Origin: a phage
Strand: one strand, 5' to 3'
Sequence record: PZ452594.1
Length of the DNA stretch: 64,000 nt
Shown in pieces: positions 4,841 through 52,154 of the stretch (the first letter of the stretch is position 1; each line of letters opens with the position of its first letter). A model generated the notes under the pieces. It saw only the letters and a list, made by a program, of their open reading frames with translations, was not told where the DNA came from and made no database searches. Position numbers and translations under genes: made by a program.

Positions 4841-5230
4841 TTAACGATTAAAATCAGCCGCAATTGTTTCCGCAACAATTTGAGCAGCAACAATTAGACG
4901 TTCATCTGCATTACCGCAATAATCATCTTCAAGGCGTTCACCGCATGAAGTCATAATAAATTTAGCACCGGCGTTTAGAGATTCTGTAGTATGTTTGCGC
5001 ATTAGTTCAATCCATTTATTACTTACTTCACGATCGATAGCTTCATAATACGCATGACGAGCAGGTGCAGATTTAATTTTATTCTGAATAACTTCCATTG
5101 CGTTATCAGAAAGAGACAAAACCCATGCTCGACGAATTTTATTTTGGTTTTGTGGATTTGATTCAGAACGCACGTGTTTTGGCTGAATATCTTTTACGTC
5201 AACAGTATAATTCACAGTAATTTTAGTCAT
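4841..5230 (-). CDS. rpbA: RNA polymerase binding protein RpbA (129 aa)
   Basis: [31 protein letters not shown]...; size and position as T4 rpbA. Confidence 0.8.
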
Positions 5231-26681: not shown

Positions 26682-27695
26682 TCATTTATAATAACTTCGG
26701 TGGTTTTCAAGATAGACCTTCTCAAGGAAGTCATCCCAGAAACTCATGTCTACTTTTTGCTGCATACCGTTCTTAGAAGCTTCAGTAGATGCTGCTTCTA
26801 CTTGATCAACCACATCTTCCAAAAACTCTTGAACTGTTTTAAATGGATGTTTACCCAACTTCACGTCGAGAATAAATGGAGCATCTTGGAGTGGATAAAT
26901 CAAGTCGCCAGTTTTGTAAATTTCCAATAGTTGAAGTCCACCACGACAAGCATGACTTAGTGCTTTCCAATCAATACCTTCATTAGCTTCGGCTTTACGA
27001 GCACGTTCACCATATTCAGCATCTAATTTGTTCAGTGACTGCTTAAGCTCAATAAGAGAAAGTGTTGTCTGATATTTACGACCCAACACAGTGTAGAACG
27101 TTTGCGGGCCTGTTTTCTCGTGATTATGGAACACCCATTCACAGAATTCGTTTTCTGGAAGACGATGCTTAATATCTTCAACTTTAGTGCGACGCTGCTT
27201 AATAGAACCATCTTCTTGGTAATCAATCCACTGCTCAGGAATTTGATTAACTACTTTCAATACATCACGTAATGCAGCCAAACGAGAACCCTTGACACCG
27301 TATTTAGAAGCTTGCTTGCGAACATATCCTAAATAGGATTTCATGTTAGTCGTATAAAAACGAGAACGGTTGTCTTGAATAAACTTCCACACGTCAGGCA
27401 AATCAGATTTAACCACTAGTTCAGGTGGAGTGTGAAGCATATCCAATGCTACAGTTTCACCATCTGCTGCTAATTTAAAGAAATATTTAAGACTGTATAG
27501 TTCATGGTCAATATCATCTTTAGTGTTTTTAGATGATGTGTTGTTGGTATTTTTACTCATATGCTCTTTAACATTTCCGATAAGAATATCGCGAGCAGGA
27601 GGAACAAAGATTTCTTTAAAATCTACATCAGATTCTGGGGTAGAAGTTCCATAAAGATGACTACCAAAATAGCTTTTCATTACTGTTTTCATCAT
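26682..27695 (-). CDS. Pol-beta-superfamily nucleotidyltransferase-like protein (337 aa)
   Basis: N-terminal signature FGSHLYGTSTPESDVDF (GS, ~10 residues, DxD). Confidence 0.55.
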   Translation of the reverse strand: MMKTVMKSYFGSHLYGTSTPESDVDFKEIFVPPARDILIGNVKEHMSKNTNNTSSKNTKDDIDHELYSLKYFFKLAADGETVALDMLHTPPELVVKSDLPDVWKFIQDNRSRFYTTNMKSYLGYVRKQASKYGVKGSRLAALRDVLKVVNQIPEQWIDYQEDGSIKQRRTKVEDIKHRLPENEFCEWVFHNHEKTGPQTFYTVLGRKYQTTLSLIELKQSLNKLDAEYGERARKAEANEGIDWKALSHACRGGLQLLEIYKTGDLIYPLQDAPFILDVKLGKHPFKTVQEFLEDVVDQVEAASTEASKNGMQQKVDMSFWDDFLEKVYLENHRSYYK

Positions 27696-28153
27696 TCAGC
27701 CTTATATTCAATAACAGGACATACTTTAGCTTTACGCGCTTTTAAAAATTCAACGATAACCGATTTCTTGGGTTGAATAGGAGGTAAACCTTTATACGCC
27801 CTATCAATATTTTCTACGTGTAAAGCATAATCCTTTTTCCATTTATAATCTTTATATTTTTCACGCAAATGTGCAGGAATAACAAATGAACCGATAATAA
27901 GTAAAACAACCAAAATCGCAAGTATAAATGCTGATGGAAGCAAAGTCCATAAACTACCAAAAATAATCCAACGCTGTAGGCTTTCTGCACAAATAATTGT
28001 TAGCCCTACGAGTATAGCACATCCAAAAATAGAAACGAAAAATGTAGGAATGGCAATAGACCAAAAATATGCGCATAGTGTCTTAGGTCGTTGCCATTCA
28101 TCGTTAAACAATTTGAATAATTTATAGTGCCAAGAGTTTTCATTAATAATCAT
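27692..28153 (-). CDS. polytopic membrane protein (153 aa)
   Basis: several hydrophobic helices (AYFWSIAIPTFFVSIFGCAILVGLTII; LLPSAFILAILVVLLIIGSFVI). Confidence 0.45.
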   Translation of the reverse strand: MIINENSWHYKLFKLFNDEWQRPKTLCAYFWSIAIPTFFVSIFGCAILVGLTIICAESLQRWIIFGSLWTLLPSAFILAILVVLLIIGSFVIPAHLREKYKDYKWKKDYALHVENIDRAYKGLPPIQPKKSVIVEFLKARKAKVCPVIEYKAE

Positions 28154-28155
28154 AA

Positions 28156-28677
28156 TTATACTTTCATTGAAGGTGTAACAGTTGTTAAATACTTAATCAT
28201 AGCTTCAGCTTCTGATTTTGATAATGAAATTTCTCCACTGTTTTGACGAATAGAAATAAAATCCGGATGACGGTCACCACCAGCTTTTAAAACACACATA
28301 TAAGTATCAACTTCGCCTTCAATATTTGAAATGATTGAAGCAGTTCCACATGAATGCGGTTTTTGATAAATCAACACAGCTTTTCTTCCGCCATTTGACT
28401 GTTCATAGGCTTTTAATACATCAAACAAATCAGTTCTTTTATCAATAGCTAAAATGTTATTTTCATCTTCAATGTTAAATCCTTCGGATACTTCATAAAG
28501 TGTTACCCATAAATCACCAATGTCAATAACAGCATTTACTTTTCCACGGCTTTCAAGAGTATGACAAATTTTCTTGATTTCGTCATAACTCATTTTAATA
28601 ATATCATCTCCTTGACTAAGAAAGATGTCATTTTTAAATTCAACACGAATTAAACCGCTTTCACTTGAAATAAACAT
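28156..28677 (-). CDS. hypothetical acidic protein (173 aa); tandem paralogue A
   Basis: C-terminus KSEAEAMIKYLTTVTPSMKV resembles neighbour. Confidence 0.45.
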   Translation of the reverse strand: MFISSESGLIRVEFKNDIFLSQGDDIIKMSYDEIKKICHTLESRGKVNAVIDIGDLWVTLYEVSEGFNIEDENNILAIDKRTDLFDVLKAYEQSNGGRKAVLIYQKPHSCGTASIISNIEGEVDTYMCVLKAGGDRHPDFISIRQNSGEISLSKSEAEAMIKYLTTVTPSMKV

Positions 28678-28683
28678 ATTTCC

Positions 28684-29238
28684 TCACTTTGAAATCATAG
28701 TTGGAATAACAGAATCAAGATAAGTCTTTAGTGCAATAGCTTCGTCTTTGGTAAATGTGACAATATGTGCTCGAGAATCATCAATTTGGCGAACAAGTAC
28801 GACATCGCCATCTTCATAAGAAGTCTTGACATCCAAAGTCGTAGTATAATTTGCAGCTACTGGATTAATAATGCTAGCACCGCGATCTTTAGCCCATTGA
28901 AGTTTAGCCTTTTCGGGTGTTTCGACTGTTTCAGATTCCAAGAATTCTTTCACCTTGGCAACGAATGTTGCCCAATTGTTGATAGAAAGACACATAAATT
29001 CAGTTTCAATATTACCGCCGTAAAGGCCACGATAAAAACGAACTTGGAGGTCGCCTGTAATATTAGTTACACCGGTAACTCCTGAGGGAGCATAAGATAA
29101 AATCGCAGCCAGTTCCATAGGAAGAATAGTAATACTATCGTCTTCCTGCGTCAGAACGTATACATTATCACGTTTTTCGATAACCAGGTCACCGAACAAA
29201 TCAGTTGTTTCAATTACAGCTTTCATATTATTTACCAA
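28684..29238 (-). CDS. hypothetical acidic protein (184 aa); tandem paralogue B
   Basis: C-terminus KDEAIALKTYLDSVIPTMISK. Confidence 0.45.
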   Translation of the reverse strand: MVNNMKAVIETTDLFGDLVIEKRDNVYVLTQEDDSITILPMELAAILSYAPSGVTGVTNITGDLQVRFYRGLYGGNIETEFMCLSINNWATFVAKVKEFLESETVETPEKAKLQWAKDRGASIINPVAANYTTTLDVKTSYEDGDVVLVRQIDDSRAHIVTFTKDEAIALKTYLDSVIPTMISK

Positions 29239-29413
29239 TTAAAGTTTCAATATAAGAATCAAGATTTACTTTAGCTTCTTCCATAAGAGTTTTGTATTTA
29301 ATCTTGTTAGCATGTCCGGAGAAAGCTGATTCATCAATAATTGTTGATGTATGAACAGCTCTACTATACGTCTCAATTAATTCTCTTAATTTAAAAGCCT
29401 GCTCACTCGTCAT
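29228..29413 (-). CDS. small helical protein (61 aa); small-paralogue family
   Basis: MTSEQAFKLRELIETYSRAV... shared N-terminal pattern M-x-x-(R/E)EQ-x-x-K-(I/L). Confidence 0.4.
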   Translation of the reverse strand: MTSEQAFKLRELIETYSRAVHTSTIIDESAFSGHANKIKYKTLMEEAKVNLDSYIETLIGK

Positions 29414-29543
29414 TACATACTCCTTTGAATAATATCAATAATGTTATTCACCAAATTATAAGTAAACATTGGGTAATTATATTGAATCATCACATACACA
29501 ACAAACAAAACTTTCATTCTCTTCTCCTTGGCAGTTGACAAGA

Positions 29544-29579
29544 TTACTATACCATAACCTTGCCAACTTGTAAACCATT
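29544..29579 (-). promoter_or_regulatory. early promoter (GTTTAC, 18 nt, TATAGT)
   Basis: sense GTTTACAAGTTGGCAAGGTTATGGTATAGT. Confidence 0.5.
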
Positions 29580-29751
29580 AAATGACGTTTTCAATAAAAT
29601 TCTGAAGCTTTGTGTGAGCATCAACCATGATTTTCAATTCTTCTTTGGCGAAAGCTATACCTCTTTCCCGAGAAGAACACTCATAGTCAGAAACTGCATT
29701 AGCATATTCTTCAATTAGCTTCATTAAAAACATCTGCTTTTCAGTTTTCAT
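29578..29751 (-). CDS. small helical protein (56 aa); small-paralogue family
   Basis: hand-translated: MKTEKQMFLMKLIEEYANAVSDYECSSRERGIAFAKEELKIMVDAHTKLQNFIENVI; below track size cutoff. Confidence 0.35.
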   Translation of the reverse strand: MKTEKQMFLMKLIEEYANAVSDYECSSRERGIAFAKEELKIMVDAHTKLQNFIENVI

Positions 29752-29935
29752 TATTCCACCTAATCATTTCAAGATATTGAACTAACTTAGCTTTGGATTT
29801 ATCCAAATCCTTTTTAGCTGCTTCTATACCGTCGTATGAATATCCTTCACAATGCTCAACTGCTAATTGGTATGAATCTATTTCAATATCACGTGCTAAT
29901 TTAATGATTTTTTCAAACTGTTCACGTGTTAGCAT
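29741..29935 (-). CDS. small helical protein (64 aa); small-paralogue family
   Basis: MLTREQFEKIIKLARDIEID... Confidence 0.4.
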   Translation of the reverse strand: MLTREQFEKIIKLARDIEIDSYQLAVEHCEGYSYDGIEAAKKDLDKSKAKLVQYLEMIRWNNEN

Positions 29936-29937
29936 AC

Positions 29938-30177
29938 TTAAACTCTCGTATTATGATCGATAATTTCATCAAGAAACATATCTAACGCTTCTAAAGCATT
30001 ATCAACTTTAGCTTCAAGTTCATCAATGCCTTTATTTGCAATGCCTGACGAAAACCAAGCAAAGTCACTAAGTTCCTCGTCTGCTTTACGAATTAAAGCT
30101 ACCAATTCTTTAATCTTATCCGCTTGTTCGATACTAATCATTATTCCACCACATATGAAAGAGAGAATATTGCACAC
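29938..30177 (-). CDS. small helical protein (79 aa); small-paralogue family
   Basis: ...[24 protein letters not shown]... Confidence 0.4.
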
Positions 30178-30329
30178 GCCATGTGAGTTGCAACTTCATC
30201 ACACATATTATAACGTTTCTTAAGAAGTTCTACAAGTTCTTCACTAGTAACTTCATCCATGTCGACGAAAAAATCACCATTAATGATGACGTAGATATTT
30301 CCTTCTTGATTGAGTGCTTCAATTTTCAT
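30141..30329 (-). CDS. hypothetical protein (62 aa)
   Basis: ATG at 30327-30329 after AAAGAGGAGAA ([21 protein letters not shown]); the longer track ORF would overlap the promoter. Confidence 0.45.
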
Positions 30330-30355
30330 GATGTTCTCCTCTTTATCCGATAGTT

Positions 30356-30392
30356 GTATAGTATCACAGCTCAAACGGAAAGTAAACCGGTA
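30356..30392 (-). promoter_or_regulatory. early promoter (GTTTAC, 18 nt, TACTAT)
   Basis: sense GTTTACTTTCCGTTTGAGCTGTGATACTATACAACTATC. Confidence 0.5.
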
Positions 30393-30402
30393 AAATGAAA
30401 AA

Positions 30403-30420
30403 AGTCTCCCGAAGGAGACT
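30403..30420 (-). terminator. intrinsic terminator AGUCUCC-UUCG-GGAGACU + U6
   Basis: plus agtctcccgaaggagact preceded by a-run; directly 3' of the ORF ending at 30425. Confidence 0.6.
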
Positions 30421-30424
30421 AATG

Positions 30425-30811
30425 TTATTCGAGGGAAAGAAGATACTTACTCTGGTAAAACATTCCAGTAATATCATCTATCGTGCTTTGGATGGCTGGA
30501 GGCATTTCTTTATAAATGCTGTTAGATTGGTCTAGTATGCGATCAATCATTTTAATTGTGTCGGTAGGAAGTTTACTGGCATCTGGAATTGAAGGTGTGT
30601 ATTTTCTACCAGAATACCCCAAATATTGCTCACCAAATTTATCAATCAAATCTGGCAACTCGGAGAAAATAAAATCGTATGCTTTATGTCTAGCATAACT
30701 TTTAGTTTCAAAATGTGCAGAATGAAAATAAGCTTGTGCAGCCATTAATAAACCTAAGTATTCATCTGCCTTTGAAGGTTTTCCACTTTGTGAAAAGTCG
30801 CTGAATTTCAT
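30425..30811 (-). CDS. hypothetical protein (128 aa) immediately downstream of rI
   Basis: ORF track. Confidence 0.5.
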
Positions 30812-31101
30812 TCAGTCTCCAATTTAATGTTCATAATTCTAGCGTATGATTGTGCCATCTCCGCGCCTCGTTCTATACATTCAAAATCAGAAGAGCACGG
30901 GTCATTTTTATAGGTCGTTCTCATAAAACTATAGAATTGTTCAGACGATTCTACGCTTTTATTTTCAAAAAGCATATAAACGTGCCTAATACCAGATTCC
31001 ATAAATTTATCAAAATGAGAATCGACATTCGCTTCAATTGATGGAGATAAAACAAATGACAATCCTAGCATGGCAAAAAGTGCCGTTGCTTTTAAGGCCA
31101 T
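30808..31101 (-). CDS. rI: lysis-inhibition regulator RI (97 aa, signal-anchor N-terminus)
   Basis: MALKATALFAMLGLSFVLSPSIEANVDSHFDKF... matches T4 RI. Confidence 0.85.
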   Translation of the reverse strand: MALKATALFAMLGLSFVLSPSIEANVDSHFDKFMESGIRHVYMLFENKSVESSEQFYSFMRTTYKNDPCSSDFECIERGAEMAQSYARIMNIKLETE

Positions 31102-31113
31102 AAAGGCCTCCTA

Positions 31114-31326
31114 TCATTTTTGTCCTGTATTTACTTTATGCCGGTGCACGGCCTTAACTTTATCAAAGTATTTTTCAAAATTTCGCAATCTAGTATAGTC
31201 TGCCGGAGATTGGTTGAGCGATACTTCTCGACGCAAAGCTGAAATGATATTTCCAACTTCCCTACGAATTTCATCTAATTGAAGAACAGTAAGATTGCGA
31301 AGTTGCTTTTCAGTTAATTGTAGCAT
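31114..31326 (-). CDS. hypothetical protein (70 aa)
   Basis: ORF track. Confidence 0.45.
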
Positions 31327-31368
31327 ATATACCCCTTTAGTTAGATAAACCTATTTATAACTTTTGCA

Positions 31369-31950
31369 CTAACCAAGCTTTTTAGTTAATTCATTCCAAT
31401 GTTTTCTACACAAAGAAACATAAATTTCATCACCAATACAGATTTGATTACCTTCTTTAACTGGTGTTCCATCTTCCATTAATCGAGCTGTCATAATCGC
31501 TTTTTTACCGCAATGACAAACTGCTTTTAGTTCAATAAGTTTATCTGCAATCGCTAAAAGTTCTTTAGAACCTTCAAACAATTTTCCAGCGAAATCAGTC
31601 CTTAATCCATAAGCCATAACAGGAACATTATATGTATCAACAATTCGGCTCAATTGATGCACTTGTTCAGTTTTTAAAAACTGGGCTTCATCTACAAATA
31701 CGCAATGAATATCTTTTTGTGCTTCAGCCCATTTATAGAACTCGAAAATATCCATATCATCTGTGATAATATTCGCTTCCTGTTTAATTCCAATGCGAGA
31801 AACGACTTCACAGACAGAGTCGCGAGTATCAATAGCAGGCTTAAGAACTAATACACTCATTCCACGTTCTTTATAATTATGTGCAGCAGTCAAAAGAGAA
31901 GCAGATTTTCCAGCATTCATTGCTGCATAAGTAAAAATTAAACTCGCCAT
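31369..31950 (-). CDS. tk: thymidine kinase (193 aa)
   Basis: P-loop NAGKSASLL; Cys pairs CHCGKK...CRKH typical of TK1-type zinc site. Confidence 0.9.
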   Translation of the reverse strand: MASLIFTYAAMNAGKSASLLTAAHNYKERGMSVLVLKPAIDTRDSVCEVVSRIGIKQEANIITDDMDIFEFYKWAEAQKDIHCVFVDEAQFLKTEQVHQLSRIVDTYNVPVMAYGLRTDFAGKLFEGSKELLAIADKLIELKAVCHCGKKAIMTARLMEDGTPVKEGNQICIGDEIYVSLCRKHWNELTKKLG

Positions 31951-31951
31951 T

Positions 31952-32140
31952 TTAGTCCTTAGTTAAATTTTCTAAATATGTTTCTAAATCATTTTCAGCT
32001 TTATCGATAGATTTTACTAATTCGTAATATGTTTCGGCATCTCCATAATCAGAAGATAATTCAAAAGACAAATCCTTTTCTAAACTAATAATTTCACCAA
32101 CTAAAAATAATATTTCGTTCTTTTGTTCGCGAGTAATCAT
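31952..32140 (-). CDS. small helical protein (62 aa); small-paralogue family
   Basis: MITREQKNEILFLVGEIISLEKDL... Confidence 0.4.
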   Translation of the reverse strand: MITREQKNEILFLVGEIISLEKDLSFELSSDYGDAETYYELVKSIDKAENDLETYLENLTKD

Positions 32141-32322
32141 AAAGAATTTATATAATCAATGAGTTCTTGTTCTTTATTATCGAATTCTTTAGAAAGTTCT
32201 TCGTATTCATTTGCATTAAAAGGACCGCATTCATCACAAACTTTTTCCAATTCACTGTTTTTATCCATAACTTCGTGGATAAGAGAAAAGAGTTTGTCTT
32301 TTTGTTCTTTGCTTAAACTCAT
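32137..32322 (-). CDS. small helical protein (61 aa); small-paralogue family
   Basis: MSLSKEQKDKLFSLIHEVMDKNSELEKVCDECG... Confidence 0.4.
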   Translation of the reverse strand: MSLSKEQKDKLFSLIHEVMDKNSELEKVCDECGPFNANEYEELSKEFDNKEQELIDYINSL

Positions 32323-32492
32323 ATATTAATTTCCAAAAGTTTTAAAATAATTCGCTTTTGCTTAAATATTTCCACAGTTAAATGATCAGTATCTTTTTGA
32401 CCAATTCCAATGGCAAAACCTTTATTAACAGCGAGTTCAATTAAATTATCAAGTTCACGTAACACTTCATATTGTAACTCAGAACTATTCAT
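32319..32492 (-). CDS. small protein (57 aa), ATGA-coupled to both neighbours
   Basis: hand-translated MNSSELQYEVLRELDNLIELAVNKGFAIGIGQKDTDHLTVEIFKQKRIILKLLEINI. Confidence 0.35.
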   Translation of the reverse strand: MNSSELQYEVLRELDNLIELAVNKGFAIGIGQKDTDHLTVEIFKQKRIILKLLEINI

Positions 32493-32701
32493 TTCGGTTT
32501 ACCTTCTTTAACGAAATCTGGATAAGGATAAAATCCCGAATAAAATCCTTCACCTTTATGATTGATGCATCCTTTATTAGAACAATAGCACCAATAATCG
32601 AAATCACAAGCCATTTCATCGTTGCATAAAGCAAAAACAACCGGCCATTTACACTTTTCACAGTGGGCATTTTTAAGAATACTAGTTTGGCTCATAACCA
32701 T
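32489..32701 (-). CDS. Cys-rich small protein (70 aa), probable metal-binding
   Basis: HCEKCKW...CNDEMACDFDYWCYCSNKGCINHKGEG; preferred over the overlapping alternative frame 32485..32670. Confidence 0.4.
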   Translation of the reverse strand: MVMSQTSILKNAHCEKCKWPVVFALCNDEMACDFDYWCYCSNKGCINHKGEGFYSGFYPYPDFVKEGKPK

Positions 32702-32919
32702 GTCACCTTTAAGCAGTATTCTTCTACATGCTGTTTACGACCTTTCTTATCAATAAAGGTATATTCAACGAATGTTCCAATGTAGTCTTTATCTACATCA
32801 TGTGGACTATTAATTGGACATTTAGTACGGCAAATGCGTTCCCATTGACGAATAATTACTGCCTTATTCTTTGGGTCATACGGATGTGGATAATGTATAT
32901 TCATAATAACGGTTCCCAA
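32692..32919 (-). CDS. hypothetical protein (75 aa)
   Basis: ORF track. Confidence 0.4.
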   Translation of the reverse strand: MGTVIMNIHYPHPYDPKNKAVIIRQWERICRTKCPINSPHDVDKDYIGTFVEYTFIDKKGRKQHVEEYCLKVTWL

Positions 32920-33368
32920 TCAACAATCACAATTTCTAATTTAGAGGAATATGTATCTAAAATCCCCTCAATAATATCCCAGTTCCCTTTACCTATGCCT
33001 GCACCAATCCTAGGCATATAGATTGTAGGTTTAATCAGTTTATTTTCACCAAACTCATTTAATTCTAACATACAATTCATTAAAGCGGAATACTCAAAAT
33101 TTGGCCCTGGTTGAAATTGAGTATAAAGGTTGAAGCAATACGCTTTATGAGTCCTAAAGTATTTTTCATAGACTGAGTAAGAACCGAGTTTAGTTACATC
33201 ACCCCATTCAGTCTGTAATTTATCAGCTTCCAAAATTTTAGGGAAAGCTTTGGTTAATTGACCTGCGACTCCAGCTTTCATCGCGTGAAAACAATTACAT
33301 CCATGCGCAATATTTTTACCTTCAGCGAAAAGGGCGACAATATCGCCCTTGATATATTTTACAATCAT
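32901..33368 (-). CDS. macro-domain-like protein (155 aa)
   Basis: N-terminal GDIV...NIAHGCNCFHAMKAGVAGQL and C-terminal MPRIGAGIGKG resemble macro-domain Gly-rich motifs; ATG after GAGGA. Confidence 0.45.
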   Translation of the reverse strand: MIVKYIKGDIVALFAEGKNIAHGCNCFHAMKAGVAGQLTKAFPKILEADKLQTEWGDVTKLGSYSVYEKYFRTHKAYCFNLYTQFQPGPNFEYSALMNCMLELNEFGENKLIKPTIYMPRIGAGIGKGNWDIIEGILDTYSSKLEIVIVDWEPLL

Positions 33369-45863: not shown

Positions 45864-46049
45864 TTATTCACCTTTAGAAATTTTATCCATAACGATAGCG
45901 ATTAAACCAATTAAAAATGCTACTACAAGCGAAAACACATTTTCTGCTGTAGTTAATAATCCGCATATAAATCCAACAAACATTGAAAAACTAAAAGCGG
46001 AAGCAGAAATTGCAATAGCAACATTTCGAATTAATTCACAACGTTTCAT
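45864..46049 (-). CDS. small membrane protein (61 aa)
   Basis: hydrophobic throughout; early promoter upstream. Confidence 0.45.
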   Translation of the reverse strand: MKRCELIRNVAIAISASAFSFSMFVGFICGLLTTAENVFSLVVAFLIGLIAIVMDKISKGE

Positions 46050-46066
46050 TTTATTCTCCTCGGTAG

Positions 46067-46090
46067 TTGATAGGGTAATAGTATCACTAC
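46067..46090. repeat. 24-nt promoter-core repeat, copy 1
   Basis: identical to 46367-46390, exactly 300 nt away. Confidence 0.85.
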
Positions 46091-46112
46091 CCTATCTAAA
46101 AGTAAACTTATT
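46076..46112 (-). promoter_or_regulatory. early promoter (GTTTAC, 18 nt, TACTAT) with 24-mer ttgatagggtaatagtatcactac
   Basis: sense GTTTACTTTTAGATAGGGTAGTGATACTAT; 24-mer at 46067-46090. Confidence 0.5.
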
Positions 46113-46419: not shown

Positions 46420-47116
<697 letters not shown>

Positions 47117-47117
<1 letters not shown>

Positions 47118-47842
47118 TATAGTACCTTTAGTGTATTTTTAATTTTAGAAAAAAGTTCTTCAAGAGAACCATCGTTTGTAATTACTAAATCGCCATCACG
47201 AATTGGCAATCCAGCTTCTGTAATATGTGTATCATTGGATTTTTGACCAGGACGAACTACATGAATTACTGTAGCACCCATCGCCCTAGCCGCATCCATT
47301 TCATGATCTTGACGAGTATCAGGAACGATATAATAATCATAACCTGAGTTAAATTTATCAAGATAATCTAAAGCAAATAATTTTACCCAGTACATGCGGT
47401 CGAAGTTATTAACAATCAAATCCGTACCTAGGGCTTGCATCAGACGACGGACTGACCATTGATCTTCAATATTATTTATAACGTCAATAATCTTGTTAAA
47501 TGCTACGGAATTAACTGATTCTTGTCCTTCGTCATCAAAAACAAACACACCCTTAATTGGGCTTTTACCGTTAAGATAGCAAAATGCTTGTTCCATAATC
47601 GTGATTACTTCTGATTTAGTCAGATTTAAATTAGTCTCACGATCATAGTCAATTCCTTCAAACTCTTTACGAGTTAAGCAAGGATAGTCAGTGTTTTCTG
47701 CAAATACGCCCCATGCATAAGCCAATGCATCCTTAATAGGACCAGCAAGTTGGTATTTAACTGCAGAATAATTGCTCATGATAAAATCAGCAGTAGTATC
47801 TTTTCCACTACGCTTTACACCGCTTAAAAAGATTAGTTTCAT
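47117..47842 (-). CDS. 1: deoxynucleoside monophosphate kinase gp1 (241 aa)
   Basis: ATG at 47840-47842 after GAGGAG gives MKLIFLSGVKRSGKDT (P-loop). Confidence 0.9.
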
Positions 47843-47891: not shown

Positions 47892-48422
47892 TTAAACTTC
47901 TGCTATAATTTTTCCATCTTTTTCTACTTGAAAATATGTGTAAGGAATCGTTGCAGTACATACTAAAGCCGGGTCTGAATCTTCTGTGTAGCTAAATTCT
48001 ACTTCAGATAGGTCAGAAACCCAAGGCTTATAAAAATTTATTGACATCACGATTTCAGTTTTGCTATTATCTAAGATGTAAAGCGTAATGTACTCAGGAC
48101 CTGTTTTTTGGGCAGTATTTTCACCTGTAAGATAGTTGCTAGTTCCTAGCATCCATTCATACATTCCTATCCACGACTTAAGTTCTTCATCAACTATAAA
48201 TCTCACAATGAGTGGATCATACTCAAATGTAACACCTGGACGTTGTGCTCGGCCCAGTCCAAACGGCCCAGTCACGGTATCAGTAACAGGTATTCTAATT
48301 CCTGGAATAGGAACTGACTGAGCATTTAAAGTAAAAGCAGATGTAGTATTACTATGTGGTATTGATACTACAAAGTTAGTTGTATTTGCTTGGTTAAAAA
48401 TTTGTTGCAGAGCTTGCGACAT
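47892..48422 (-). CDS. 3: tail completion / sheath stabiliser gp3 (176 aa)
   Basis: ATG at 48420-48422 after GAGGAA gives MSQALQQIFNQANTTNF. Confidence 0.8.
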   Translation of the reverse strand: MSQALQQIFNQANTTNFVVSIPHSNTTSAFTLNAQSVPIPGIRIPVTDTVTGPFGLGRAQRPGVTFEYDPLIVRFIVDEELKSWIGMYEWMLGTSNYLTGENTAQKTGPEYITLYILDNSKTEIVMSINFYKPWVSDLSEVEFSYTEDSDPALVCTATIPYTYFQVEKDGKIIAEV

Positions 48423-48528
48423 ATATTCCTCATAATGCTTTATAGTTGTTGGTGGTATAATGGGTCTAAGTCCCTTCCATTCAATTCCAATTAGAACAAA
48501 CAACAGAAAAGAATGGAAGATAATAGAA

Positions 48529-49353
48529 TTAGATATTTGACCAGACTTTGTTTGCAGAGAAACGTTTTCCTTTTGAAACGAACTGCTGAAGTGGCATCAA
48601 CACAACGTTCGCCCAGTCTTTCGGGGCGATTTCAACAAGGCTACCCATAATATTACCGGGTATATATGCCTTGATCATTTGGTCTGCACCCCTAAATCCT
48701 TTCACTTGACTCCAATCAATTTTTAATTTCGTTTTATTAGTAATAGTAGGTGTATTTGAATATTGCTTTAAAAGCTCTTCTAGAAATTGCTGACGAGCTT
48801 TAGGTGGAATATAGTGCAAGTTTAATCCGTACATTAAATTATGCTTACCTAAACCAAGGTAAATTATCAAAGGAAATTTATCCCAGTAAGGAAGAGTTTC
48901 CTTGTGTTTAGCATCATAAGCAAAAGCATATATTCGTCCCGGCTGCGGGCGAACAACTTTATGTCCTTTTACTTGCTTAATAGTTTCAGCAAACCATTTT
49001 CTGGTTTTATTATTAATTGCTGCACCTTCATTACGAATTTTATCACGCAATGTTTGTCTGAATGAATTTATCATAAGCAGTTGTCTTTCTTGCTTATTGA
49101 GTTTATTCATTGGTTTTGATTCAAGCTTTTGAATCTTTTCAGCCGTTTTAATTCCCGAAGCATATTTTGACATTGCCGAAGTAAACGTAGAGTATTTGAT
49201 TCCTCTTTCTTCAGCAAATTGTTTTCCTGTCATTCCTTTTGCTTTGGCCTTTTTATATTCAAGACCTATTTGAATCCATTTCTTTTCGTTTAATGATTGC
49301 TTAACCTTTGGAACTTGGGGAGTGCTTTCATTAATTATTTGAAAAATAGCCAT
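48529..49353 (-). CDS. 2: DNA end-protector gp2 (274 aa)
   Basis: size and position match T4 gp2. Confidence 0.8.
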
Positions 49354-49805
49354 TATGCCCCCTTAAAGCCAAGAGCTCGTAATCCATCTTCTGTTAGAAT
49401 TCTAAATTTTATTCCACGCTTTTCAGCTAAAGCTTGCGCTGCTTTCCATTTGTCGGTATTAACGGAATATGTATAAATTTCATTCATAAATCTTTTCTTC
49501 GCTGCAGTTGTTAGATGTGCTGGTTTAACTGGTGGTTGTGTTTCTTTTTTAGGTTTTATTTCAATAAAAAATTCTTGTCCAGAAGAATCTTTCATCCAAA
49601 TATCCATGAAGTATCTACGTTTTTTCCCTTCTGCATTACAAAAATAAGGAATTACTGCTGTTTCACTACCCCATGCAATAATTTCTGGATTTTTATCTAA
49701 CCATTCAAAAAAGAATTTTTCCCAATTTGATCTATACGTAATTTTTTTAGGGTCACCTCTATACTTTGATATATTTTTAGGAACCCATTTTCCAGAATAT
49801 GCCAT
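49353..49805 (-). CDS. 4: head completion protein gp4 (150 aa)
   Basis: size and position match T4 gp4; 1-nt overlap with gene 2. Confidence 0.8.
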
Positions 49806-49816
49806 TGGATTCTCCT

Positions 49817-49824
49817 TATAAATA
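49817..49824 (+). promoter_or_regulatory. late promoter TATAAATA for gene 53
   Basis: exact TATAAATA about 29 nt upstream of ATG 49853. Confidence 0.6.
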
Positions 49825-49831
49825 GATAATA

Positions 49832-49839
49832 TATTTATA
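49832..49839 (-). promoter_or_regulatory. late promoter TATAAATA (minus) for genes 4-2-3
   Basis: plus tatttata, divergent from the gene 53 promoter. Confidence 0.55.
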
Positions 49840-49852
49840 AACAGGAGGGCCC

Positions 49853-50443
49853 ATGCTCTTTACATTTTTTGATCCGATTGAATATGCGGCCAAAACGGTG
49901 AATAAAAACGCGCCGACTATTCCTATGACAGATATTTTTAGAAACTATAAAGACTATTTTAAACGCGCTCTTGCGGGATACCGCTTACGTACTTATTATA
50001 TTAAAGGTTCACCACGCCCGGAAGAATTAGCAAATACTATATATGGAAATCCACAGTTGTATTGGGTTTTATTGATGTGTAATGATAATTATGACCCGTA
50101 TTATGGATGGATTACTTCGCAAGAAGCTGCTTATCAAGCATCTATACAAAAATACAAAAACGTAGGTGGAGACCAAATAGTATATCATGTAAATGAGAAC
50201 GGTGAAAAATTTTATAATTTAATATCATACGATGATAATCCATATGTTTGGTATGACAAAGGTGATAAAGCTAGAAAATATCCTCAATATGAAGGAGCAC
50301 TTGCTGCGGTCGATACGTATGAAGCTGCTGTTCTTGAAAATGAAAAACTTCGTCAAATAAAAATAATAGCAAAATCAGACATTAATTCATTTATGAACGA
50401 CCTTATACGTATAATGGAGAAATCTTATGGAAATGATAAGTAA
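49853..50443 (+). CDS. 53: baseplate wedge protein gp53 (196 aa)
   Basis: size and position match T4 gp53. Confidence 0.85.
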   Translation: MLFTFFDPIEYAAKTVNKNAPTIPMTDIFRNYKDYFKRALAGYRLRTYYIKGSPRPEELANTIYGNPQLYWVLLMCNDNYDPYYGWITSQEAAYQASIQKYKNVGGDQIVYHVNENGEKFYNLISYDDNPYVWYDKGDKARKYPQYEGALAAVDTYEAAVLENEKLRQIKIIAKSDINSFMNDLIRIMEKSYGNDK

Positions 50444-52154
50444 TAACCTTAATTGGTTTGTTGGTGTTGTTGAAGATAGAATGGACCCATTAAAATTAGG
50501 TCGTGTTCGTGTTCGTGTTGTTGGTCTGCATCCACCTCAAAGAGCACAAGGTGATGTAATGGGTATTCCAACTGAAAAATTACCATGGATGTCAGTTATT
50601 CAACCTATAACTTCTGCAGCAATGTCAGGAATTGGAGGTTCTGTTACTGGACCAGTAGAAGGAACTAGAGTTTATGGTCATTTTTTAGACAAATGGAAAA
50701 CTAACGGAATTGTCCTTGGCACGTATGGTGGAATAGTTCGCGAAAAACCGAATAGACTTGAAGGATTTTCTGATCCAACTGGACAATATCCTAGACGTTT
50801 AGGAAATGATACTAACGTACTAAACCAAGGCGGTGATGTAGGATATGATTCCTCTTCTAATGTTATTCAAGATAGTAACTTAGACACTGCAATAAATCCT
50901 GATGATAGACCACTATCAGAGATTCCAACTGATGATAATCCAAACATGTCAATGGCTGAAATGCTTCGCCGTGATGAAGGATTAAGACTAAAAGTTTATT
51001 GGGATACCGAAGGATATCCGACAATTGGTATTGGTCATCTTATCATGAAGCAGCCAGTTCGTGATATGGCTCAAATTAATAAAGTTTTATCAAAACAAGT
51101 TGGTCGTGAAATTACAGGAAATCCAGGTTCTATTACAATGGAAGAAGCGACGACTTTATTTGAGCGTGATTTGGCTGATATGCAACGTGATATTAAATCA
51201 CATTCTAAAGTAGGACCAGTCTGGCAAGCTGTCAACCGTTCTCGCCAAATGGCATTAGAAAATATGGCATTTCAGATGGGTGTTGGCGGTGTAGCTAAAT
51301 TTAACACAATGTTAACTGCTATGTTAGCAGGAGATTGGGAAAAAGCATATAAAGCCGGTCGTGATTCATTGTGGTATCAACAAACAAAAGGCCGTGCATC
51401 CCGTGTTACCATGATTATTCTTACGGGGAATTTGGAATCATATGGTGTTGAAGTGAAAACTCCAGCTAGGTCTTTATCGGCAATGGCTGCGACTGTAGCT
51501 AAATCTTCTGACCCTGCTGACCCTCCTATTCCGAATGATTCAAGAATTTTATTTAAAGAACCTGTTTCTTCATATAAAGGCGAATATCCTTATGTGCATA
51601 CAATGGAAACTGAAAGTGGACATATTCAGGAATTTGATGATACCCCTGGGCAAGAACGATATAGATTAGTTCATCCAACTGGAACTTATGAAGAAGTATC
51701 ACCGTCAGGGAGAAGAACAAGAAAAACTGTTGATAATTTGTATGATATAACCAACGCTGATGGTAATTTTTTGGTAGCCGGTGATAAAAAGACTAACGTC
51801 GGTGGATCAGAAATTTATTACAACATGGATAATCGTCTTCACCAAATAGATGGAAGCAATACAATATTTGTACGTGGCGATGAAACTAAGACGGTTGAAG
51901 GTAATGGAACTATCCTAGTCAAAGGTAATGTTACTATTGTAGTTGAAGGCAATGCTGACATTACAGTTAAAGGAGATGCTACCACTTTAGTTGAAGGTAA
52001 TCAAACTAATACAGTAAATGGAAATCTTTCTTGGAAAGTTGCTGGGACAGTTGATTGGGACGTTGGTGGTGATTGGACAGAAAAAATGGCATCTATGAGT
52101 TCTATTTCATCTGGTCAATACACAATTGACGGATCGAGGATTGACATTGGCTAA
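50427..52154 (+). CDS. 5: baseplate hub / cell-puncturing protein gp5 with lysozyme domain and C-terminal beta-helix (575 aa)
   Basis: internal lysozyme domain MLRRDEGLRLKVYWDTEGYPTIGIGHLI (paralogue of e); C-terminal VxGxxxxx octapeptide repeats. Confidence 0.9.
   Translation: MEMISNNLNWFVGVVEDRMDPLKLGRVRVRVVGLHPPQRAQGDVMGIPTEKLPWMSVIQPITSAAMSGIGGSVTGPVEGTRVYGHFLDKWKTNGIVLGTYGGIVREKPNRLEGFSDPTGQYPRRLGNDTNVLNQGGDVGYDSSSNVIQDSNLDTAINPDDRPLSEIPTDDNPNMSMAEMLRRDEGLRLKVYWDTEGYPTIGIGHLIMKQPVRDMAQINKVLSKQVGREITGNPGSITMEEATTLFERDLADMQRDIKSHSKVGPVWQAVNRSRQMALENMAFQMGVGGVAKFNTMLTAMLAGDWEKAYKAGRDSLWYQQTKGRASRVTMIILTGNLESYGVEVKTPARSLSAMAATVAKSSDPADPPIPNDSRILFKEPVSSYKGEYPYVHTMETESGHIQEFDDTPGQERYRLVHPTGTYEEVSPSGRRTRKTVDNLYDITNADGNFLVAGDKKTNVGGSEIYYNMDNRLHQIDGSNTIFVRGDETKTVEGNGTILVKGNVTIVVEGNADITVKGDATTLVEGNQTNTVNGNLSWKVAGTVDWDVGGDWTEKMASMSSISSGQYTIDGSRIDIG

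What the first reader, a model, noticed from the sequence alone, without database searches (positions are those of the whole stretch)
29228..32492. Family of at least six ~60-aa helical paralogues flanking rI and tk
ORFs 29228..29413, 29578..29751, 29741..29935, 29938..30177, 31952..32140 and 32137..32322 share size, an acidic helical character and an N-terminal pattern M-x-x-(R/E)-E-Q-x-x-K-(I/L)-x-x-L, and are translationally coupled in tandem. Repeatedly duplicated tiny early proteins like these are typical of host-takeover or anti-defence inhibitor families.
Basis: seen in the sequence. Interest (0 to 1): 0.45.

Follow-up and report, generated by a model that had tools for sequence, protein, structure and literature searches.

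The report
Six small helical-hairpin paralogues (DUF7438)
A T4-like phage carries six diverged copies of a tiny two-helix early protein around its rI and tk genes; the family is real and already catalogued as Pfam DUF7438, but nobody knows what it does.

Summary
The window is a Tequatrovirus, 98.5% identical to RB18. The six minus-strand ORFs are RB18ORF101, mobD.2a, mobD.3, mobD.4, tk.1 and tk.2. All six score 50-69 bits against Pfam PF24219 (DUF7438; cut-off 25). Each also beats 2000 shuffles of itself against an HMM built from the other five. AlphaFold2 models two members as a 60-residue antiparallel helical hairpin (pLDDT 92 and 90).

Corrections:
- mobD.4 starts at 30141, not 30177.
- Only three members are strongly acidic.
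- ORF 32319-32492, inside the stated range, is not a member.

The family is small: 44 clusters at 50% identity among 1.84 billion proteins, all in phage-like contexts. Copy number runs from 0 to 6 across T4-like phages. The subtypes are old positional orthologues under purifying selection.

In T4, published data show early transcription and detected protein. Single knock-outs cause no fitness loss, including on five defence systems.

Sequence and fold searches give no functional lead; the fold is generic and Rop-like. The anti-defence or host-takeover reading is plausible from context (the neighbour tk.4 is the anti-DarTG2 factor AdfM) but untested. Verdict: a real, already catalogued family of unknown function; moderate-to-low interest.

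The parts
32137..32322 (-). tk.2, a 61-aa DUF7438 member with net charge -9. Its start overlaps the upstream ORF109c stop by 4 nt, and its stop overlaps the tk.1 start by 4 nt.
   Evidence: Pfam PF24219 at 68.8 bits. phrog_653. Leave-one-out HMM 18.0 bits against a shuffle maximum of 10.2. AF2 pLDDT 92 with helices 5-30 and 37-60. dN/dS 0.07-0.23.
31952..32140 (-). tk.1, a 62-aa DUF7438 member with net charge -10. It ends 1 nt before the tk start codon.
   Evidence: Pfam PF24219 at 56.2 bits. phrog_653. Leave-one-out HMM 25.5 bits against 12.8. Junction sequence read.
29938..30141 (-). mobD.4, a 67-aa DUF7438 member with net charge -9. The true start is the ATG at 30141, which overlaps the mobD.5 stop by 1 nt.
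   Evidence: Pfam PF24219 at 57.0 bits. phrog_653. Leave-one-out HMM 24.0 bits against 12.6. Start supported by the RB18 annotation and homologue N-termini. dN/dS 0.2-0.3, with indels in the inter-helix loop (60-aa against 67-aa forms).
29741..29935 (-). mobD.3, a 64-aa DUF7438 member with net charge -3.
   Evidence: Pfam PF24219 at 64.1 bits. phrog_653. Leave-one-out HMM 16.9 bits against 11.6. dN/dS 0-0.14.
29578..29751 (-). mobD.2a, a 57-aa DUF7438 member with net charge -2. It overlaps mobD.3 by 11 nt.
   Evidence: Pfam PF24219 at 50.2 bits. phrog_2758. Leave-one-out HMM 15.6 bits against 13.5. Intact here, but split by a 1-nt deletion in the T4 reference NC_000866.
29228..29413 (-). RB18ORF101 homologue, a 61-aa DUF7438 member with net charge -1. 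It is absent from T4. The 'helicase loader' label it carries has no support.
   Evidence: Pfam PF24219 at 56.9 bits. phrog_4859. Leave-one-out HMM 15.9 bits against 11.3. AF2 pLDDT 89.7 with helices 3-25 and 31-59. No orthologue in T4 or in 4 of 5 close IMG/VR contigs.
30403..30420 (-). Intrinsic-terminator-like stem-loop (AGTCTCCTTCGGGAGACT followed by a T-run) after rI.-1. It closes the upstream unit ahead of the mobD.5-mobD.2a cluster.
   Evidence: Terminator scan and sequence.
30358..30387 (-). Putative T4-type early promoter for the mobD.5-mobD.4-mobD.3-mobD.2a unit (GTTTAC, 18-nt spacer, TACTAT). This is inferred.
   Evidence: Sequence read directly; it fell below the consensus scan's threshold. 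Primer-extension stops were assigned to a mobD.5 promoter in T4 (PMC1702504).
29546..29574 (-). Early-promoter-like site (TTTACA, 17-nt spacer, TATAGT, with an upstream TG) ahead of mobD.2 and ORF101.
   Evidence: Best match in the promoter scan, 10 of 12 positions.
30141..30329 (-). mobD.5 (62 aa), interleaved with the family but not a member.
   Evidence: No PF24219 hit. phrog_3024. hhalign probability 0.25% against the family alignment.
32319..32492 (-). RB32ORF109c homologue (57 aa), inside the finding's range but not a detectable member.
   Evidence: No PF24219 hit. phrog_3452. hhalign probability 1.9%.

Best explanation
What it is (shown). Six anciently diverged paralogues of one small phage protein family, Pfam DUF7438. 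They sit in the nrdC-tk hyperplastic region of a T4-like phage. Each protein is a single antiparallel helical hairpin of 57-67 residues. The conserved positions are the a/d core residues of both helices plus an N-terminal T/S-x-E-Q element. The loop and the exposed faces vary freely. The genes are packed start-to-stop in early transcription units. In T4 they are transcribed early, made as proteins, and individually dispensable.

How it most likely works (inferred). Each hairpin is a stable non-enzymatic scaffold, probably pairing into a Rop-like four-helix bundle. Its variable surface binds a host, or possibly phage, protein early in infection. The different paralogues have different targets. 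This makes them accessory host-modulating or counter-defence factors that pay off only in particular hosts or conditions. For the three strongly acidic members, mimicry of nucleic acid or binding to basic DNA/RNA-binding proteins is the most likely mode.
For: Family membership and homology:
- Pfam PF24219 at 50-69 bits for all six; leave-one-out HMMs beat 2000 shuffles in every case.

Fold:
- AF2 gives two helices at pLDDT 92 (tk.2) and 89.7 (ORF101).
- Conserved columns are heptad-spaced hydrophobic or alanine positions (tk.2 numbering 11, 14, 15, 18, 21, 25 and 40, 43, 47, 50, 54, 57, 58, 61), plus T/S4, E6 and Q7. Everything else is high-entropy.

Real, selected proteins:
- dN/dS is 0-0.45 wherever substitution counts allow an estimate.
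- Subtype-specific positional orthologues exist in phages whose Tk is 82% and about 70% identical to the window's (Mosigvirus for the 82% group) and in Gelderlandvirus.
- MobD.3, MobD.4, Tk.1 and Tk.2 are detected by proteomics, with early RNA (PMC9697503).

Accessory character:
- Copy number is 0-6 within 6-10 kb of tk across T4-like phages.
- Alleles are swapped, and tk.2::tk.1 hybrid genes occur.
- T4 genes are non-essential by transposon insertion and show no fitness effect by CRISPRi-ART.
- The nrdC.11-mobD.3 segment can be deleted (PMC9825161).

Context:
- The neighbouring gene tk.4 is AdfM, an anti-DarTG2 factor.
- Distant members always sit in same-strand arrays of small unknown ORFs on phage-like contigs.
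- Net charge is -9 to -10 for three members.
Against: - No binding partner, oligomeric state or phenotype is known.
- Single T4 mutants were not depleted on hosts carrying RexAB, RnlAB, CBASS, DarTG1 or DarTG2, or in minimal medium. Redundancy among paralogues could hide an effect.
- Three members are near neutral, so nucleic-acid mimicry cannot be a family-wide mechanism.
- Only one clear hydrophobic stripe per helix is conserved. Dimerisation is an inference from what is generally known of 60-residue hairpins such as Rop. It was not tested.
- Proximity to an anti-defence gene in a gene-dense phage is weak evidence.
Confidence: 0.45

Rival explanations
1. The six ORFs are not homologous. Their resemblance reflects only a shared low-complexity, helix-forming, AT-rich composition. 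This is the refutation the first reader proposed.
For: Pairwise identities are low, 14-32%. tblastn with mobD.4 finds only its own orthologue in each genome. There is no DNA-level repeat.
Against: All six exceed the Pfam DUF7438 gathering score by 25-44 bits over the full model. No shuffle out of 2000 reaches the real leave-one-out score for any of the six. Conserved columns are position-specific: E6, Q7, L14, L54, Y/F57. Neighbouring small helical ORFs of similar composition (rI.1, ORF109c) do not match.
Confidence: 0.02
2. They are small accessory subunits or regulators of the phage's own nucleotide-metabolism machinery, for example modulators of thymidine kinase or of the dNTP-synthesis complex. 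The ancestral copies would be co-translated with tk.
For: Across genera the most conserved location is immediately upstream of tk. tk.1 ends 1 nt before the tk start codon. Tk.1, Tk.2 and Tk share the same expression class, early RNA and middle protein.
Against: Many T4-like phages with a conserved tk have no copy near it: Marfa, the Krischvirus FL38, Aes012, and 15 of 40 IMG/VR loci. Some Tequatroviruses with 99-100% identical Tk lack tk.1 and carry a tk.2 allele only about 55% identical. Four of the six copies lie in a separate unit beyond rI. Synteny in T4-like early regions is largely historical.
Confidence: 0.1
3. They are Rop-like RNA-binding four-helix bundles that tune the stability or translation of phage or host RNAs.
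Against: Rop is also absent from the PDB profile search at E <= 10. The fold match is shared with about 1800 unrelated chains. No conserved basic surface positions exist beyond K10.
Confidence: 0.07
4. They are largely functionless passengers. In this view they are ORFan cassettes kept by modular shuffling and by the need to preserve translational coupling and operon spacing, with little selection on the proteins themselves.
For: Loss of any single gene has no measurable fitness effect. Copy number varies from 0 to 6. mobD.2a carries a frameshift in the T4 reference genome. The region has a promoter/stem-loop architecture like that described for modular shuffling in T4-type phages.
Against: dN/dS is well below 1 for mobD.3, mobD.4, tk.2 and mobD.2a. 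Subtype-specific orthologues are retained across genera at about 30-60% identity with the fold-defining residues intact. The proteins accumulate in infected cells.
Confidence: 0.2

Closest known systems
Pfam PF24219 (DUF7438); PHROGs phrog_653, phrog_2758 and phrog_4859
   Same: All six ORFs are full-length members above the curated cut-off. The T4 genes tk.1, tk.2, mobD.3 and mobD.4 are the classical representatives.
   Different: Nothing differs in kind. This phage has six intact copies, against four intact plus one frameshifted in the T4 reference. PHROGs splits the family into three groups and labels one 'helicase loader', which no evidence supports.
Rop/Rom of ColE1 plasmids (63-aa helical hairpin that dimerises into a four-helix bundle and binds RNA)
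   Different: No detectable sequence relationship. RNA binding and dimerisation were not tested. The fold match is non-specific.
Small early accessory or counter-defence proteins of T-even phages (Dmd; Acb1 = 57B; AdfN = 30.3; AdfM = tk.4)
   Same: Early expression, dispensability on laboratory hosts, and location in variable regions. AdfM lies four genes upstream of tk.2 in this window.
   Different: Those proteins have defined targets or enzymatic folds. DUF7438 proteins have no homology to them. They were not hits in the RexAB, RnlAB, CBASS, DarTG1 or DarTG2 challenges.
Anti-CRISPR protein, PDB 23aa chain A (best sequence-profile hit among solved structures)
   Same: Whole-sequence E-value 0.0046 at 20.8 bits against the family profile.
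   Different: The score is the sum of two weak, out-of-order stretches (13.6 and 8.2 bits, independent E-values 0.79 and 39) in a 108-aa helical protein. This is treated as a chance compositional match.

Membership tests
Pfam PF24219 (DUF7438) | Whole-protein HMM score at or above the gathering cut-off of 25 bits | tested here: met
   Scores are 56.9, 50.2, 64.1, 57.0, 56.2 and 68.8 bits for ORF101, mobD.2a, mobD.3, mobD.4, tk.1 and tk.2.
Pfam PF24219 (DUF7438) | Full-length, single-domain match (a 57-position model covering essentially the whole 57-67-aa protein) | tested here: met
   The six matches begin at model position 1 and end at position 56 or 57 of 57. Database homologues are nearly all 55-67 aa.
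Pfam PF24219 (DUF7438) | Membership independent of the curated model (which probably contains the T4 sequences) | tested here: met
   Leave-one-out HMMs built only from the other five window ORFs score 15.6-25.5 bits, against at most 13.5 for 2000 shuffles.
Rop/Rom (RNA one modulator) | Sequence homology to Rop | tested here: not met
   HMM score 0.1 bits and hhalign probability 0.3%, using a Rop sequence from memory. Rop is absent from the PDB profile search at E <= 10.
Rop/Rom (RNA one modulator) | Antiparallel helical hairpin of about 60 residues | tested here: met
Rop/Rom (RNA one modulator) | Homodimeric four-helix bundle that binds RNA kissing complexes | not testable with these tools
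   The structure tool predicts single chains only, and no biochemical data exist.
Replicative helicase loader (the label of phrog_4859 and of RB18 gp101) | Homology to a known loader family (T4 gp59, DnaC, lambda P) | tested here: not met
   Pfam gives only DUF7438 for ORF101. NCBIfam gives nothing. The PDB profile search returns no loader.
Molybdopterin-guanine dinucleotide biosynthesis protein 'MobD' (the RefSeq label of mobD.4) | Homology to Mo-cofactor biosynthesis proteins | tested here: not met
   Pfam and NCBIfam return no such hit. The name appears to come from the T4 locus name mobD.4, a gene next to the mobD homing endonuclease.
Small acid-soluble spore protein Tlp (TIGR03090) | Score at or above the curated cut-off of 72.9 bits | tested here: not met
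   mobD.4 scores 17.4 bits, and it is the only member with any hit.
Known anti-defence proteins (anti-CRISPR and other characterised inhibitors) | Significant sequence or fold similarity to a characterised inhibitor | tested here: not met
Known anti-defence proteins (anti-CRISPR and other characterised inhibitors) | Loss of the gene sensitises the phage to a defence system | not testable with these tools
   Published T4 transposon data show no depletion of these genes on RexAB, RnlAB, CBASS, DarTG1 or DarTG2 hosts. Multi-gene deletions and other defence systems have not been tested.

The most novel reading that the evidence does not exclude
DUF7438 is a diversified binder scaffold. Each paralogue would use its variable helical surface, anchored by the conserved T-x-E-Q/aromatic patch at the open end of the hairpin, to neutralise a different host defence or host factor. 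The tk/mobD arrays of T-even phages would then be a compact multi-target counter-defence cassette whose phenotypes are hidden by redundancy and by the use of laboratory hosts.
Probability: 0.25. Interest if true: 0.6.

Novelty: already known. Interest (0 to 1): 0.3.

Why it matters
T4 is the best-studied lytic phage, yet about half of its genes have no function. These six include four classical ORFans: tk.1, tk.2, mobD.3 and mobD.4. Treating them as one expressed, selected, copy-number-variable family changes how to test them. Single knock-outs may be uninformative, so the sensible experiment is to delete the whole family and challenge diverse hosts. If a target were found, the 60-residue hairpin would be a very small, easily engineered inhibitor scaffold. 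As it stands, the finding adds no new kind of system. It confirms a catalogued DUF and corrects some annotations.

Tried and rejected
1. Extra members in the window. Weak HMM hits at 45867-46091 and 46878-47138 (E 0.19 and 0.82) disappeared with the broader family HMM.

2. ORF109c, rI.1 and mobD.5 as remote members. Local profile building followed by hhalign gave probabilities below 2%.

4. Sequence profile against the PDB. The 'Anti-CRISPR' hit at E = 0.0046 was rejected after inspecting its alignment.

5. NCBIfam gave nothing usable.

6. Literature. No paper mentions DUF7438. Gene-name searches mostly returned unrelated papers. The accessory-gene screens of Silas et al. do not mention these genes in their main text.

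7. Recent duplication. No DNA-level direct repeats link the copies.

8. The search for related loci with the family alignment failed because no stretch was conserved enough. The Tk protein was used as an anchor instead.

Full report
**Identity of the region**

The window is a T4-like phage. A 4.8-kb query around the finding is 98.5% identical to phage RB18 and matches 662 phage records. By comparison with the RB18 and T4 annotations, the six minus-strand ORFs are:

| Window coordinates | Gene |
|---|---|
| 29228-29413 | RB18ORF101 (absent from T4) |
| 29578-29751 | mobD.2a |
| 29741-29935 | mobD.3 |
| 29938-30141 | mobD.4 |
| 31952-32140 | tk.1 |
| 32137-32322 | tk.2 |

Four of them lie downstream of rI.-1/rI in the direction of transcription. 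The other two lie immediately upstream of tk.

**Is the similarity real?**

Yes. All six match Pfam PF24219 (DUF7438) over the whole 57-position model, at 50-69 bits against a cut-off of 25. PHROGs places them in three groups: phrog_653, phrog_2758 and phrog_4859.

The Pfam model probably contains the T4 sequences, so I ran an independent test. An HMM was built from five window ORFs and scored against the sixth and against 2000 shuffles of it. Real scores were 15.6-25.5 bits. No shuffle exceeded 13.5 bits, and none reached the real score in any of the six cases.

Pairwise identity is only 14-32%, and there is no residual DNA similarity. The copies are therefore ancient, not recent duplicates.

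The interleaved small ORFs mobD.5, mobD.2, rI.1 and ORF109c (32319-32492) are not members. For mobD.5, rI.1 and ORF109c, hhalign probability against the family is below 2%. A six-frame HMM scan finds no seventh copy in the 64-kb window. All Tequatrovirus hits in the 5.8-billion-protein search fall into the same six subtypes.

**Corrections to the finding**

- mobD.4 begins at the ATG at 30141, which has a GGTGG Shine-Dalgarno-like sequence and the family N-terminus MISIEQ. The GTG at 30177 is an over-extension.
- The motif is better written M-[IL]-[TS]-x-E-Q-x-x-K-[IL]-x-x-L-[IV], with register shifts in three copies.
- Net charge is -9 to -10 for tk.1, tk.2 and mobD.4, but only -1 to -3 for the other three.

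**Anatomy of the locus**

The genes are packed tightly. Junctions are 4-nt ATGA overlaps (ORF109c/tk.2, tk.2/tk.1), 1-nt TAATG overlaps (mobD.5/mobD.4, mobD.2/ORF101), an 11-nt overlap (mobD.3/mobD.2a), or gaps of 1-2 nt (tk.1/tk, mobD.4/mobD.3). This packing is compatible with translational coupling, which remains an inference.

A terminator-like stem-loop at 30420-30403 follows rI.-1. After it comes a putative early promoter for mobD.5. It is read from the sequence, and a mobD.5 promoter is documented in T4 by PMC1702504. The best promoter-like site in the region (TTTACA, 17 nt, TATAGT, with TG) lies at 29574-29546, ahead of mobD.2 and ORF101.

**Structure**

AlphaFold2, given a 24-sequence family alignment, models both tested members as two long antiparallel helices:

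| Member | pLDDT | Helices |
|---|---|---|
| tk.2 | 92.1 | 5-30 and 37-60 |
| ORF101 | 89.7 | 3-25 and 31-59 |

In a 43-sequence alignment, the conserved columns are heptad-spaced core positions. In tk.2 numbering these are I/L3, I/L11, L14, I/V15, 18, A21 and L25 in helix 1, and Y40, 43, 47, A50, L54, Y/F57, L/I58 and L/I61 in helix 2. The N-terminal T/S4, E6 and Q7 are also conserved. The remaining positions have high entropy.

I read T/S-x-E-Q as a helix N-cap that packs next to the aromatic residue at position 57 at the open end of the hairpin. Whether it is also a functional site is unknown.

Fold searches are uninformative:
- No Foldseek hit against the PDB has E < 0.5.
- BFVD returns only uncharacterised small proteins of T4-like phages.

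A PDB sequence-profile hit to an 'Anti-CRISPR protein' (E = 0.0046) is built from two weak, out-of-order stretches and is not credible. Rop shows no sequence similarity.

**Distribution and evolution**

The family is small. Only 44 clusters at 50% identity reach E <= 1e-3 among 1.84 billion representatives, and nearly all are 55-67 aa. Distant members lie in same-strand arrays of small unknown ORFs on phage-like contigs.

I scanned tk-anchored loci with a family HMM. The counts below are copies within 6-10 kb of tk:

| Phage group | Copies |
|---|---|
| This window | 6 |
| T4 reference | 4 intact, plus mobD.2a split by a 1-nt deletion |
| Other Tequatrovirus-like contigs | 4-5 |
| Tk 82% identical (Mosigvirus PhAPEC2 and three IMG/VR contigs) | 2-3 |
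| Gelderlandvirus | 2 |
| Citrobacter phage Ursula | 2 |
| Phages with Tk about 70% identical | 0-3 |
| Marfa, the Krischvirus FL38, Aes012 | 0 |
| Loci with Tk 63% identical or less | 0 |

Two sites recur: just upstream of tk, and about 2 kb downstream, after rI.-1. Each window paralogue has its own positional orthologues in other genera, so the split predates those genera.

Nei-Gojobori dN/dS against T4 and five IMG/VR contigs is as follows:

| Gene | dN/dS |
|---|---|
| mobD.3 | 0-0.14 |
| mobD.4 | 0.2-0.3 |
| tk.2 | 0.07-0.23 |
| mobD.2a | 0.07-0.45 |
| tk (for comparison) | 0.00-0.02 |

This is purifying selection, but more relaxed than on the enzyme.

The region is mosaic. Some phages with 99-100% identical Tk carry a tk.2 allele only about 55% identical and lack tk.1. 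Two of the three also carry a tk.4 allele only 56% identical. tk.2::tk.1 hybrid genes also exist (P0021, P0090).

**Published functional data for the T4 orthologues**

- MobD.3 and MobD.4 have early RNA and early protein. Tk.1 and Tk.2 have early RNA and middle protein (PMC9697503 supplements).
- mobD.2a, mobD.3, mobD.4, tk.1 and tk.2 are 'Non-essential' in HIDEN-SEQ and 'Not Fit' in CRISPRi-ART.
- A deletion spanning nrdC.11-mobD.3 is viable (PMC9825161).
- When the T4 transposon library was challenged with RexAB, RnlAB, CBASS, DarTG1, DarTG2 or minimal medium, only the expected single genes were hits. One of them is tk.4 (AdfM, anti-DarTG2), which in this window lies four genes upstream of tk.2.

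**Interpretation**

What is shown is a real, expressed and selected family of early helical-hairpin proteins. It is dispensable and variable in copy number.

What is inferred is the mechanism. With no catalytic features, conserved positions almost all structural (core residues plus the N-terminal T/S-x-E-Q element, read here as a helix cap) and variable surfaces, the proteins most likely act as small binders of host or phage proteins. They are probably dimeric four-helix bundles, with different paralogues binding different targets, and they would matter only in particular hosts. I put this at about 0.45.

The rivals are:
- Functionless passengers of modular shuffling (0.2). Selection, cross-genus retention and protein detection argue against this.
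- Adaptors of Tk or dNTP metabolism (0.1). Absence from many tk-bearing phages argues against this.
- Rop-like RNA binders (0.07). The resemblance is fold-level only.
- Non-homology (0.02). This is refuted.

**Novelty and score**

The family is already curated as DUF7438, and its T4 members have been annotated for decades, so this is already known as a family of unknown function. The useful outputs here are the confirmation, the copy-number and orthology picture, the corrected mobD.4 start, and the flagged misannotations ('helicase loader', 'molybdopterin-guanine dinucleotide biosynthesis protein MobD'). Interest is 0.3.

Noticed in passing
L002 (T4 NC_000866.4) 4997-5178, compared with window 29578-29751: The T4 reference genome has a 1-nt deletion (TTTCGCC becomes TTTT-CC) that splits mobD.2a into a 38-aa annotated stub and an unannotated C-terminal piece. 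The gene is intact in this window and in RB18, and is listed as 174 nt in the T4 annotation used by the HIDEN-SEQ study. The reference may therefore carry a strain-specific mutation or a sequencing error.
   Followed up: partly
Proteins P0021 (Escherichia phage UFV-AREG1, 64 aa) and P0090 (50 aa): These are hybrid genes that join the N-terminal helix of tk.2 to the C-terminal helix of tk.1. This indicates recombination between the adjacent paralogues, which collapses two genes into one.
   Followed up: no
L011, L013 and L015 (IMG/VR contigs), compared with window 31952-33368: These three contigs have Tk proteins 99-100% identical to the window's. They carry a tk.2 allele only about 55% identical and have no tk.1. 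L013 and L015 also carry a tk.4 (AdfM macrodomain) allele only 56% identical. This looks like a swapped mosaic block upstream of tk.
   Followed up: partly
window 29938-30141 and 29228-29413; RefSeq records such as NC_000866 and NC_054906: Public annotations call mobD.4 'molybdopterin-guanine dinucleotide biosynthesis protein MobD', apparently a confusion with the locus name. They call the ORF101 homologue 'helicase loader', following phrog_4859. No profile search supports either name.
   Followed up: yes
window 29749-29760 and 30139-30150 (minus strand): The exact 12-mer GGTGGAATAATG (Shine-Dalgarno-like sequence, upstream stop, then start codon) occurs only twice in the 64-kb window. Both copies sit at the start of a family member, mobD.2a and mobD.4. 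The chance expectation, allowing one mismatch, is 0.39 matches. It may be a relic of a duplicated junction or a convergent coupling signal.
   Followed up: partly
window 27692-28677 (minus strand): T4 has the mobD homing-endonuclease gene between nrdC.11 and mobD.1. This phage, like RB18, instead has two unrelated ORFs of 153 and 173 aa (RB32ORF096c and RB32ORF097c homologues). The 153-aa product looks like a membrane protein.
   Followed up: no
window 32319-32701 (minus strand): Two small ORFs absent from T4 lie between tk.3 and tk.2. One is a 57-aa helical protein (phrog_3452). The other is a 70-aa cysteine-rich protein (…HCEKCKWP…CYCSNKGCINH…) that resembles a zinc ribbon. Both overlap their neighbours by 4 nt.
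   Followed up: partly
window 29938-30141 (mobD.4), inter-helix loop: The mobD.4 loop is an indel hotspot among close relatives, for example [19 protein letters not shown] here against ERINFALSGIEE in T4 (67 aa against 60 aa). The C-terminal helix is almost invariant, even in the more distant phage VR7. This gene also has the highest dN/dS in the family (0.2-0.3).
   Followed up: partly
window 32901-33368 (minus strand): tk.4, annotated 'phosphatase' with an A1pp/macro domain, is the orthologue of T4 AdfM. A 2025 preprint (bioRxiv 10.1101/2025.11.20.689424) reports AdfM as the anti-DarTG2 factor.
   Followed up: partly
window, about 48000-52000: GC skew changes sign near position 50000, from about -0.1 to about +0.1. 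This is consistent with a switch in the predominant direction of transcription.
   Followed up: no
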